A stretch of 64,000 nt of DNA from Escherichia coli (GTDB lineage Bacteria; Pseudomonadota; Gammaproteobacteria; Enterobacterales; Enterobacteriaceae): NCBI RefSeq assembly GCF_017348835.2, contig NZ_CP071375.1. The stretch is one strand, 5' to 3'. The position numbers are program-made. How positions within the stretch are numbered: position 1 is the first letter of the stretch; every line of letters begins with the position of its first letter. This document shows, one piece after another, positions 59,301 to 62,300 of this stretch.

Positions 59301-62300
59301 AATGGTAACTGAACGTACGGCCCATAACCCACGCCATAATGACCAAGCGTACTACCGAAGCGGTGAGGTTCAGTCCGTTGCAGTTTCGGGTTCGCCATCC
59401 CTGCAACATCAATAAAGCCGCCCATCCCCAAAATGGTGTTCAGGAAAAAGCGGGTAAAGTGGACCATCCCCTGATAAGGGTCGCCCTGCAAGAAGTAGTT
59501 AACCATCACCGCAGGTTCTTCAAGGTTGCCGGTAAAGTTGCTCAAACCGTTACGCGCCGGTTGCGGAACATAATCACGCCAGGCGACAGCGACCGGTCGA
59601 ACAATATACGGGTCTAGTACGTTGAAGTTGAAGTTGTACATGGTGCGGTTGAACCCTTCTAACGGGTCAGAACGCCCTTGCTGATCTGTACCGGAACTCG
59701 CACACCCCACCAGAAGCGTAGTTCCCAGAGCAAGCGCCGACAGGCGAAGCTTCATAAATGTCTCCCTGTTTTTTTATGGCTTATGCAGTTTGCCATCCAT
59801 GACGGAACGATACCGTATCCGCCTGTTTAGGTGTGGGCGATTGTAACAGCACGTCAACTGATGTCCAGACGCCCTGATTTGCTGATTTGATCATAGCCTG
59901 GTAATCGCCGCCCTGTAGGCTACTTGATTCTATGGAAACAGAAAAAGGCAAACGCGGCCTTTTCTACATTTTCAGAGTAACTCCCGCCAGTTGCGAGCAA
60001 AAAAGCCGCTACGCTTTAGCTATACGTGCTAATTCAAGAGAAGAGACCATGGACAACGACAAAATTGATCAACACAGCGACGAAATTGAAGTTGAGAGCG
60101 AAGAAAAAGAGCGTGGCAAAAAAATAGAAATAGATGAAGATCGACTCCCCTCCCGGGCGATGGCAATTCATGAGCATATCCGCCAGGATGGTGAAAAAGA
60201 GCTGGAACGCGACGCAATGGCACTACTGTGGTCAGCCATTGCGGCGGGTCTGTCGATGGGCGCTTCATTACTGGCAAAAGGGATATTTCATGTCGAACTG
60301 GAAGGTGTGCCGGGCAGCTTCTTGCTGGAGAATCTCGGTTATACCTTTGGTTTTATTATCGTCATTATGGCCCGCCAGCAATTATTTACCGAAAACACCG
60401 TGACTGCGGTACTACCCGTCATGCAAAAACCGACAATGAGCAACGTTGGCTTACTTATGCGGTTATGGGGCGTCGTGCTGCTGGGTAATATTCTCGGGAC
60501 AGGTATTGCGGCGTGGGCATTTGAATATATGCCAATCTTCAATGAAGAAACTCGCGATGCATTTGTCAATATCGGCATGGATGTGATGAAGAACACCCCC
60601 AGCGAGATGTTTGCCAACGCGATCATTTCCGGCTGGCTGATCGCCACTATGGTATGGATGTTTCCTGCAGCGGGTGCGGCAAAGATTGTGGTGATTATAT
60701 TGATGACCTGGCTTATTGCCCTGGGTGACACCACCCACATCGTTGTCGGTTCTGTTGAAATCCTCTATCTGGTGTTTAACGGCACGCTGCACTGGAGCGA
60801 TTTCATCTGGCCCTTCGCACTACCTACTTTAGCGGGGAACATCTGCGGCGGCACCTTTATCTTCGCGTTAATGAGTCATGCACAGATCCGTAACGACATG
60901 AGCAACAAGCGCAAAGCAGAAGCACGCCAAAAAGCAGAACGTGCGGAAAACATTAAGAAAAATGATAAAAACCCGGCATAAATGGCGAGGGTTTAAGCAA
61001 TCGAGCGGCAGCGTACTTACCCCGCAGTCCATTAGCGGGTATACTCATGCCGCATTGTCCTCTTAGTTAAATGGATATAACGAGCCCCTCCTAAGGGCTA
61101 ATTGCAGGTTCGATTCCTGCAGGGGACACCAGATACCCTTCAAACCAAATCTACCTTCACCCCGTAAAAGATGGGTTTGGCAGCACACTTGCCCTATATC
61201 TACTCATTTTTACTGCAACAGGTTGAAATCTCAGCACTGTCAGAAAGCGCTGATGACTAAACAGCCCTGGGCCGGGCGATGTAACCATCACACAGAATCC
61301 TGATAGCGAAATATGGCGTGACTCGATACTTCACTCCGCAATGCATTCCTTGATGAATTCGCAGGCCCGTAATACACGGGACAGGTCGCTGAATGACGAC
61401 AATGTCCTGGAAATCAGCGAACCGTGTATCCGGAGTACATTTGAGCGACTGTACCAGAACATGAATGAGGTGTTTGGATTAGGCGATTATTAGCAGGCCT
61501 AAGCATTTTAGTATTATTATTTTCCGGTTGAGGGATATGGAGATATCGACAACAACCGGAAAAAGTTTATGTCTATATTGCTGAAGGTACAGGCGTTTCC
61601 ATAACTATTTGCTCGCGTTTTTTACTCAAGAAGAAAATACCAAATAGCAACATCAGGCAGACAATACCCGAAATTGCGAAGAAAACTGTCTGGTAGCCTG
61701 CGTGGTCAAAGAGTATCCCAGTCGGCGTTGAAAGCAGCACAATCCCAAGCGAACTGGCAATTTGAAAACCAATCAGAAAGATCGTCGACGACAGGCGCTT
61801 ATCAAAGTTTGCCACGCTGTATTTGAAGACGGATATGACACAAAGTGGAACCTCAATGGCATGTAACAACTTCACTAATGAAATAATCCAGGGGTTAACG
61901 AACAGCGCGCAGGAAAGGATACGCAACGCCATAATCACAACACCGATAAGTAATGCATTTTTTGGCCCTACCCGATTCACAAAGAAAGGAATAATCGCCA
62001 TGCACAGCGCTTCGAGTACCACCTGGAATGAGTTGAGATAACCATACAGGCGCGTTCCTACATCGTGTGATTCGAATAAACCTGCATAAAAGACAGGAAA
62101 GAGTTGTTGATCAAAAATGTTATAGAAAGACCACGTCCCCACAATAAATATGACGAAAACCCAGAAGTTTCGATCCTTGAAAACTGCGATAAAATCCTCT
62201 TTTTTTACCCCTCCCGCATCCGCCGCTACGCACTGGTGATCCTGGTCTTTAAAACACATGTTGATCATCATAAATACAGCGCCAAATAGCGAGACCAACC

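What the first reader, a model, noticed from the sequence alone, without database searches (positions are those of the whole stretch)
61132..61572. Unassigned ~440-bp junction between argW and the cscB stop, containing a stop-terminated ORF remnant
This segment holds no ORF-track gene. A plus-strand frame reads ...WRDSILHSAMHSLMNSQARNTRDRSLNDDNVLEISEPCIRSTFERLYQNMNEVFGLGDY* and ends near 61493, with no credible start; it looks like the C-terminal end of a gene whose 5' part was lost. It could be a scar from an earlier integration or deletion at argW, or the island boundary itself. I could not identify the remnant.
Basis: seen in the sequence. Interest (0 to 1): 0.4.

Follow-up and report, generated by a model that had tools for sequence, protein, structure and literature searches.

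The report
Decayed island gene relic beside argW
The 441 bp between the argW tRNA gene and the sucrose permease gene cscB are the non-functional, neutrally evolving leftovers of the last two genes of a tRNA-integrating genomic island, plus the cscB terminator hairpin; it is ordinary genomic debris at a well-known recombination hotspot.

Summary
argW is at 61057-61131 and cscB ends at 61573. A plus-strand frame stays open from 61257 to a TAG at 61491-61493.

The frame is not the C-terminal end of a gene. It is an internal piece of a DUF4942 (PF13708) gene, about aa 38-148/154 of a 281-aa protein, covering Pfam profile positions 5-62 of 190. Both ends are lost and the stop codon is not the native one.

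Just upstream, at 61168-61200, lies a 33-nt piece of a DUF957 gene. In intact CP4-type islands that insert at tRNA genes, DUF957 directly precedes DUF4942. The spacer is therefore a two-gene relic in conserved order of such an island's far end. It points away from argW and has been shortened by microhomology deletions.

The segment occurs in 2640 of 5426 complete E. coli genomes, essentially every cscB carrier (2648). It is absent from dsdC-type genomes. The same fused relic lies next to csc in an Escherichia lineage about 90% identical in DNA.

It evolves neutrally. No integrase gene or attR repeat survives. The remaining sequence is a cscB-proximal hairpin shared with Citrobacter amalonaticus csc.

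Low interest.

The parts
61057..61131 (+). argW, tRNA-Arg(CCU). Its last 15-22 nt (about 61110-61131) form the att core used by argW-integrating elements.
   Evidence: ARAGORN and Rfam tRNA at 63 bits. In lysogens a copy of the tRNA 3' end sits directly before the base equivalent to 61132: TCTGCAGGGGACACCA in L021 and L008, and a 22-nt copy in O157:H7 Xuzhou21. K-12 annotates the CPS-53 attR as pawZ.
61132..61167 (.). 36 bp of unassigned argW-proximal flank, specific to the csc-type haplotype.
   Evidence: Homologous to the post-attR sequence of the divergent Escherichia locus L008 (first 60 nt, z=4.9, 0/1000 shuffles). Not significantly similar to the K-12 or B2 dsdC-type flank, the CFT073 flank or the CPS-53 attL flank (z 0.7-2.6, the same as unrelated controls). 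No match to DUF957 nt 67-102 by eye.
61168..61200 (+). Fragment of a DUF957 gene (nt 103-135 of a 198-nt gene), fused to the DUF4942 fragment.
   Evidence: Local alignment to the DUF957 genes of two intact islands. Window: 26/33 identities, score 34 against a shuffle maximum of 28 (0/500). Orthologous L008 copy: 28/32, score 48 (0/500). The peptide DSAALLPCI of DUF957 is readable in L008 frame 3.
61201..61476 (+). Fragment of a DUF4942 (PF13708) gene, nt ~113-445 of 846 (aa ~38-148 of 281). Weak similarity may extend it to 61492. It carries a 54-nt deletion at 61284/61285, a frame switch, and frame-1 stops at 61258-61260 and 61282-61284.
   Evidence: Pfam; blastn at 72-76% to full-length paralogs ending at 61476; tblastn in two collinear frames; profile hits to positions 42-76 and 90-158. 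Alignment to a DUF957[1-135]+DUF4942[113-] template gives 234/309 identities over 61168-61476.
61341..61493 (+). 50-aa ATG ORF that RefSeq sometimes annotates as a CDS. It is most likely spurious: an open stretch of the pseudogene.
   Evidence: Start and length vary among genomes. Substitutions fall 7:8:9 over codon positions, with 18 nonsynonymous against 6 synonymous sites. The stop codon lies past the last clearly homologous base.
61494..61519 (.). Spacer of uncertain origin between the relic and the csc hairpin.
   Evidence: Still shared with the O169:H41 locus that lost the relic to an ISEc46-associated rearrangement. Similarity to C. amalonaticus csc starts within it, at about 61505-61514. 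It is the most variable part of the segment, with 5 of the 20 sites 61493-61512 variable.
61520..61563 (-). Hairpin 9 nt downstream of the cscB stop (11-bp stem TTTTCCGGTTG / CAACCGGAAAA). Probably the cscB transcription terminator and the true end of the csc module.
   Evidence: RNA fold -17.8 kcal/mol, z=-3.0. The stem arms are invariant among six E. coli copies (five distinct sequences) and nearly unchanged in L008 and C. amalonaticus, while the loop varies. The simple terminator scan did not call it because it has no U-tract and its loop exceeds the scan's 3-8 nt limit.
61573..62820 (-). cscB, the sucrose permease gene (context).
   Evidence: 415-aa ORF; annotated as oligosaccharide MFS transporter in the identical locus L001; present in 2648 of 5426 genomes.

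Best explanation
The argW-cscB spacer is non-functional relic DNA. A CP4-type island (P4-like integrase, inserting at tRNA genes) once sat at argW in the usual orientation: tRNA, integrase, cargo, toxin-antitoxin module, DUF957, DUF4942, attR. Deletions then removed almost everything. One removed the region from just after the tRNA to DUF957 nt ~103. One joined DUF957 nt 135 to DUF4942 nt ~113 at a short ATCGA repeat. A 54-nt deletion occurred between GGC(G/A)ATGAAA repeats. Everything beyond DUF4942 nt ~445-463 was lost, including attR, up to about 25 bp from the cscB terminator hairpin. The surviving ~310 bp have drifted neutrally ever since, tightly linked to the csc sucrose genes. They form the argW-side edge of the csc-type haplotype, which in about half of E. 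coli replaces dsdC and part of dsdX.

Shown: the identity and order of the two fragments, their decay, their neutrality, their linkage to csc, and their age. Inferred: that the island sat at argW itself, whether in an Escherichia ancestor or in the donor of the csc block, and the order of the deletions.
For: 1. DUF4942 homology. DUF957 homology directly upstream on the same strand.

2. In intact islands DUF957 then DUF4942 are the last two genes, following antirestriction, JAB/RadC, DUF987, YeeU, CbtA and DUF5983. In BL21 the DUF4942 gene points towards setC, away from where selC lies on the K-12 map (from memory; selC is not in the fetched locus). About 135 bp downstream of it is TTCGACTCCTGTGATCT, which matches the selC 3' end as I remember it.

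3. The relic starts 36 bp after the argW att core, with the same polarity.

4. Haplotype boundary: yfdC is 98.1% identical to K-12 and the yfdC-argW spacer matches at 74/75. Similarity is then lost at the first base after the tRNA.

5. Linkage: the segment is in 2640 genomes, cscB in 2648 and the dsdC-type flank in 2732, of 5426. dsdC-type genomes without a prophage have only 95-99 bp between argW and dsdC.

6. Age: locus L008 is ~90% identical to E. coli in both csc and dsdA-emrY. It carries the same DUF957/DUF4942 fusion plus further microhomology deletions of its own.

7. Neutrality: pairwise divergence of the segment is 2.0-6.4%, against 1.2-5.0% at cscB third codon positions. Substitutions show no codon-position bias.

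8. No full-length close relative was found. All hits above 80% identity are fragments of 131 aa or fewer from this locus.
Against: - No integrase gene, no attR repeat and no third island gene survive, so past integration at argW is inferred only from position, order and polarity.
- The DUF957 piece is only 33 nt.
- The 36 bp next to the tRNA and the 26-bp spacer remain unassigned.
- I found no genome with an intact CP4-type island at argW. The elements seen there are CPS-53/Kapi1-like prophages, Stx phages and others.
- The relic could equally have arrived as passenger DNA together with csc.
Confidence: 0.72

Rival explanations
1. Passenger DNA. The DUF957-DUF4942 relic was never part of an element integrated at the recipient's argW. 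It came from the donor genome in one block with cscBKAR. The left crossover fell in the near-universal argW sequence and the right end joined illegitimately inside dsdX.
For: There is a strict 1:1 association with csc and absence from all dsdC-type flanks examined. Divergence between haplotypes starts exactly at the tRNA end, as expected if the tRNA was the homologous anchor. This needs one event fewer than a resident scar followed by loss in dsdC-type strains.
Against: The csc module as shared with C. amalonaticus stops at the hairpin, at about 61505-61514, and lies in a different neighbourhood there, with no tRNA within 8 kb. So csc does not intrinsically carry the relic. Even in this scenario the relic would most simply be a scar at the donor's argW, so this is a variant of the main explanation rather than a contradiction.
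Confidence: 0.3
2. The 50-73 aa ORF is a real gene for a small DUF4942-derived protein, as RefSeq annotates in many genomes.
For: PGAP calls a CDS in many genomes. The frame stays open for 78 codons.
Against: - It covers only 58 of 190 profile positions.
- Predicted starts and lengths differ between genomes, and many genomes have no call.
- Substitutions are spread 7:8:9 over codon positions, with 18 nonsynonymous to 6 synonymous sites.
- The segment diverges at least as fast as cscB third positions.
- The orthologous L008 copy is broken by stops and deletions in every frame.
- No promoter-like site lies upstream of the ORF; the single promoter-like site in the scan (61490-61517) lies at its 3' end and is within chance expectation.
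Confidence: 0.03
3. Conserved non-coding backbone: an argW 3' trailer, a regulatory region or a small RNA, whose resemblance to a protein frame is accidental.
For: It is present at the same place in thousands of genomes, directly after a tRNA gene.
Against: It is present in only 49% of genomes and is replaced by unrelated sequence in the rest. Its protein and DNA homology to island genes is highly significant. Rfam finds no family other than the tRNA. It shows the highest variability in the neighbourhood.
Confidence: 0.03

Closest known systems
DUF4942 (PF13708) genes at the attR-proximal end of CP4-type E. coli islands inserted at tRNA genes (for example the BL21 selC island, or the island next to tRNA-Ile in strain 135)
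   Same: 72-76% DNA and ~53% protein identity over the retained part. The fragment is preceded by DUF957 on the same strand, and it points away from the tRNA as in the BL21 selC island.
   Different: Only ~40% of the gene survives, as an internal piece. It is frameshifted, has a 54-nt deletion and lacks the native start and stop. The rest of the island, the integrase and attR are all absent.
Cryptic prophage and island remnants at tRNA genes in E. coli (CPS-53/KpLE1 at argW; CP4-6, CP4-44 and CP4-57 in K-12)
   Same: Decayed mobile-element DNA next to a tRNA att site. The same att core is still used by present-day elements.
   Different: It is far more reduced: ~310 bp against 10-35 kb. It has no boundary repeats and is unrelated in sequence to CPS-53.
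The argW-dsdCXA / cscRAKB variable region (Jahreis et al. 2002; Moritz and Welch 2006, as cited in PMC11251922, PMC3032704 and PMC4366372)
   Same: This is that locus: csc replaces dsdC and part of dsdX next to argW, mutually exclusive with an intact dsdCXA.
   Different: The papers I could read do not describe the relic between argW and cscB. The two primary papers were not available to me.

Membership tests
DUF4942 (PF13708) gene | Sequence match to the family profile above Pfam's gathering score | tested here: met
   39 bits against a cut-off of 25, E 8.9e-10, for the 78-aa frame. The full-length paralog scores 231.6 bits.
DUF4942 (PF13708) gene | Complete domain and an intact reading frame with its own start and stop | tested here: not met
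   Profile positions 5-62 of 190 only. There is a frame switch, internal stops and a 54-nt deletion, and the stop codon lies outside the homology. It is a pseudogene fragment, not a member gene.
Relic of a CP4-type island integrated at a tRNA gene | Located directly at the 3' end of a tRNA gene that serves as an att site | tested here: met
   It starts 36 bp after argW. The attR copies of two classes of elements end exactly at the base before 61132.
Relic of a CP4-type island integrated at a tRNA gene | Conserved terminal gene order DUF957 then DUF4942, on the strand leading away from the tRNA | tested here: met
   Gene order in intact islands. Both fragments are found in that order in the window and in L008. 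A 17-nt stretch matching the selC 3' end lies after DUF4942 in BL21 (selC sequence and its position relative to setC recalled from memory, selC itself not in the fetched locus).
Relic of a CP4-type island integrated at a tRNA gene | Tyrosine integrase gene next to the tRNA | tested here: not met
   No ORF or homology of that kind in 61132-61572. Compatible with a relic, but it means integration cannot be demonstrated.
Relic of a CP4-type island integrated at a tRNA gene | Direct repeat of the tRNA 3' end (attR) at the far boundary | tested here: not met
   Allowing up to 3 mismatches, the only other hit in the 64-kb window is a chance-level match at 44481.
csc sucrose regulon module | Sequence travels with cscB in other genera | tested here: not met
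   Homology with C. amalonaticus csc ends at about 61505-61514, at the hairpin. Beyond it is an unrelated chemoreceptor-like gene. Only 61520-61572 belongs to the module.
Functional small-protein gene (RefSeq CDS call) | Purifying selection and a conserved start | tested here: not met
   18 nonsynonymous against 6 synonymous variable sites, codon positions 7:8:9. Product lengths of 44-85 aa across genomes. Only six copies (five distinct sequences) were compared.
Intrinsic terminator (hairpin 61520-61563, minus strand) | Stable G+C-containing stem followed by a U-tract | tested here: inconclusive
   The stem is stable and conserved. The 3' tail is UAAUAAUAC, not a U-run, and the scan did not call it.

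The most novel reading that the evidence does not exclude
The relic may record how sucrose catabolism entered Escherichia. In this reading csc arrived at argW on, or immediately beside, a CP4-type integrative island before E. coli split from a lineage about 90% identical in DNA. The csc/dsdCXA alternative, which correlates with intestinal versus urinary lifestyles, would then be an ancient island-borne polymorphism maintained ever since, and not a recent illegitimate insertion.
Probability: 0.2. Interest if true: 0.35.

Novelty: new member of a known kind. Interest (0 to 1): 0.12.

Why it matters
The significance is minor.

- **Annotation:** thousands of RefSeq genomes carry a 44-85 aa "DUF4942 domain-containing protein" or "hypothetical protein" CDS here. 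It should be a pseudogene or remnant feature, and the DUF957 piece is not annotated at all.
- **Island boundary:** the left boundary of the csc-type island is fixed at the last base of argW. The end of the csc module proper is fixed at the cscB hairpin.
- **Age marker:** the csc-at-argW arrangement is at least as old as the split between E. coli and a ~90%-identical Escherichia lineage. This bears on the history of the sucrose versus D-serine polymorphism.

Tried and rejected
- **att repeats:** I searched the window for repeats of the argW 3' end with up to 3 mismatches. Only a chance-level hit turned up.
- **Backbone hypothesis for the first 50 bp:** MAFFT and the eye suggested that the bases after argW are shared with K-12 or B2 dsdC-type strains (TTTATCCCT..., TAGCAGGCC). 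Shuffle tests gave z 0.7-2.6, no better than unrelated controls, so I dropped this.
- **CPS-53 attL flank and a second element's integrase-proximal flank (L018):** no similarity.
- **First DUF4942 alignment:** it started at 61182. I revised it because 61168-61200 fits DUF957 better.
- **Rfam:** only the tRNA was found.
- **Promoter and terminator scan:** nothing above expectation.
- **PDB sequence search with a full-length DUF4942 protein:** no hit. PHROGs gives only a partial resemblance to a phage 'DNA methyltransferase' family, so the ancestral gene's function stays unknown.
- **Plasmids:** the only hits are mislabelled chromosomes.
- **Primary papers:** Jahreis 2002 and Moritz & Welch 2006 are not held.
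- **Closer full-length relative of the relic:** none found in two large protein searches.

Full report
**What is there**

The window carries yfdC, argW (tRNA-Arg CCU, 61057-61131, + strand) and cscB (61573-62820, - strand). The identical locus in strain PE164 is annotated in the order yfdC, tRNA-Arg, a 153-nt 'DUF4942 domain-containing protein' CDS, cscB, a cscK split by an IS3-family element, cscA, cscR.

It is open from 61257 to the TAG at 61491-61493. The only ATG ORF is 61341-61493, 50 aa.

**Identity of the frame**

The 78-aa translation matches Pfam DUF4942 (PF13708) at 39 bits against a cut-off of 25, but only over profile positions 5-62 of 190. In a full-length 281-aa paralog the domain spans aa 87-275.

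- blastn finds full-length paralogs at 72-76% identity over window 61275-61476.
- tblastn gives 53% identity to aa 76-151 (E 5e-19), plus a collinear second hit in another frame to aa 38-65.
- A family profile confirms both pieces.

The remnant is therefore an internal part of the gene. About 130 C-terminal residues are missing as well, and the TAG is not the native stop.

**A second fragment**

Window 61168-61200 matches nt 103-135 of the 198-nt DUF957 gene.

| Copy | Identities | Score | Shuffle maximum | Shuffles reaching score |
|---|---|---|---|---|
| Window | 26/33 | 34 | 28 | 0/500 |
| Orthologous copy in L008 | 28/32 | 48 | 28 | 0/500 |

In intact islands the gene order is ...antirestriction, JAB/RadC, DUF987, YeeU antitoxin, CbtA toxin, DUF5983, DUF957, DUF4942, and then the island ends. 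A template made of DUF957[1-135] joined to DUF4942[113-] aligns to 61168-61476 at 76% identity. It needs one 54-nt gap at 61284/61285, flanked in the intact gene by GGC(G/A)ATGAAA repeats. The DUF957/DUF4942 junction coincides with a short ATCGA repeat present in both genes.

In BL21 the DUF4942 gene points towards setC, and about 135 bp downstream of it is a 17-nt stretch matching the selC 3' end. The selC sequence, and its position upstream of setC, are from my own knowledge; selC is not in the fetched locus. If so, the polarity tRNA ... DUF957, DUF4942, attR matches what is seen at argW.

**The rest of the segment**

- 61132-61167 (36 bp) and 61494-61519 are unassigned.
- 61520-61563 is an 11-bp-stem hairpin just after the cscB stop.
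- The hairpin's arms are invariant in six E. coli copies (five distinct sequences) and nearly unchanged in L008 and Citrobacter amalonaticus csc, while the loop varies.
- blastn homology to C. amalonaticus csc ends at about 61505-61514. Beyond that lies an unrelated gene, and no tRNA is nearby.

So only the hairpin region belongs to the csc module. It is probably the cscB terminator, although it lacks a U-tract.

**Distribution**

| Feature | Complete E. coli genomes (of 5426) |
|---|---|
| The 441-bp segment | 2640, single copy, chromosomal |
| cscB | 2648 |
| K-12-type argW/attR-to-dsdC flank | 2732 |

- Prophage-free dsdC-type genomes have only 95-99 bp between argW and dsdC.
- CFT073 has a different island there.
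- yfdC is 98.1% identical between the window and K-12, and the yfdC-argW spacer matches at 74/75. Similarity is then lost at the first base after the tRNA.
- An apparent resemblance of the flanks did not survive shuffle tests.
- In lysogens the attR copy of the tRNA end sits immediately before the base equivalent to 61132.
- An O169:H41 strain has lost the relic. It carries argW, a truncated CPS-53-type integrase gene, ISEc46 and then the last ~76 bp before cscB.

**Age and selection**

A cross-species scan with CscB found csc in a divergent Escherichia genome (L008). Its csc region and its dsdA-emrY backbone are both ~90% identical to E. coli. After a CPS-53-like attR, L008 carries the same DUF957/DUF4942 fusion. 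It has additional deletions of its own, between CGGCAA repeats and at a TTTTCCGG microhomology with the hairpin arm. The relic and its linkage to csc are therefore at least as old as that split.

Among six E. coli copies (five distinct sequences), pairwise divergence of the segment is 2.0-6.4%. That equals or exceeds the third-codon-position divergence of the adjacent cscB, 1.2-5.0%. Variable sites in the frame fall 7:8:9 over codon positions, with 18 nonsynonymous and 6 synonymous. RefSeq calls products of 44-85 aa or nothing at all. No closer full-length relative exists in two very large protein searches. All of this indicates neutral decay.

**Explanation**

The most likely explanation (confidence about 0.7) is a relic of the far end of a CP4-type island that once occupied argW. 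It was whittled down by microhomology deletions and now forms the argW-side edge of the csc-type haplotype.

It remains open whether the island sat in an Escherichia ancestor or in the donor from which the csc block came, with the tRNA serving as the homologous anchor. The strict linkage to csc and the sharp boundary at the tRNA favour the second somewhat.

No integrase gene and no attR repeat survive, so integration itself is inferred, not shown. A functional small protein or a conserved non-coding element is very unlikely.

**Literature and novelty**

The locus is a well-known hotspot. Published work describes csc replacing dsdC and part of dsdX next to argW (PMC11251922, PMC3032704, PMC4366372), prophages and Stx phages at argW (PMC10132054), and PAI-CFT073-argW (PMC7545054). 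I found no description of the relic in the papers I could read, and the two primary papers were unavailable. RefSeq already labels part of it DUF4942. This is an ordinary finding of low interest, useful mainly for annotation and as an age marker for the csc/dsd polymorphism.

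Noticed in passing
window 62857-64000 (L001 7761-9988): cscK is split by an IS3-family element. A C-terminal kinase fragment lies at about 62892-63092 and a transposase ORF starts at 63157. The identical locus in strain PE164 is annotated as two partial kinase pseudogenes flanking an IS3 transposase with a programmed frameshift. This strain probably lacks fructokinase from the csc locus.
   Followed up: partly
window ~57532-58605 (L001 2401-3474): A 1074-nt 'hypothetical protein' gene sits between fadL and mlaA in this strain. Strain FDAARGOS_1252 (L002) has nothing there. The O169:H41 strain (L003) has a 1269-nt hypothetical gene, with a different protein accession, upstream of mlaA. 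This looks like a small variable insertion.
   Followed up: no
L003 3796-6080 (E. coli O169:H41 2014EL-1345-2): Alternative junction: argW, the first 282 nt of a CPS-53-type integrase gene, an ISEc46 (IS200/IS605, tnpA+tnpB), then only ~76 bp before cscB. The relic appears to have been removed by an IS-associated deletion.
   Followed up: partly
L007 6465-6524 (Escherichia sp. MOD1-EC7003): Homology to the cscB hairpin breaks inside the loop and is replaced by unrelated sequence up to the contig end. It may be a mobile-element end inserted in the terminator.
   Followed up: no
L018 4001-8033 (E. coli strain 405): Tandem occupancy of argW. After a prophage ending in torI plus attR comes a second element, with its own 428-aa tyrosine recombinase and a rolling-circle replication protein.
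   Followed up: no
L019 1340-1400 (O157:H7 Xuzhou21): The element at argW here ends with a 22-nt copy of the tRNA 3' end carrying a 1-nt deletion (TTCGATTCCTGCAGGG-ACACCA). Its neighbour is a 'recombinase family protein'. The att core is longer than the 15-16 nt of CPS-53-type phages.
   Followed up: no
proteins P0015, P0020, P0002: Short contigs encode chimeric ORFs in which unrelated N-termini run into the relic frame at different points; one is an Rnf/Nqr-like membrane segment. These are either assembly chimeras or further rearrangements at this junction.
   Followed up: no
L004 5604-5778 (E. coli strain 135): In this island the DUF4942 gene ends 98 bp from a tRNA-Ile gene on the opposite strand, so the 3' ends converge. 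The DUF4942 end of CP4-type islands can therefore also lie on the tRNA side, which weakens polarity arguments.
   Followed up: no
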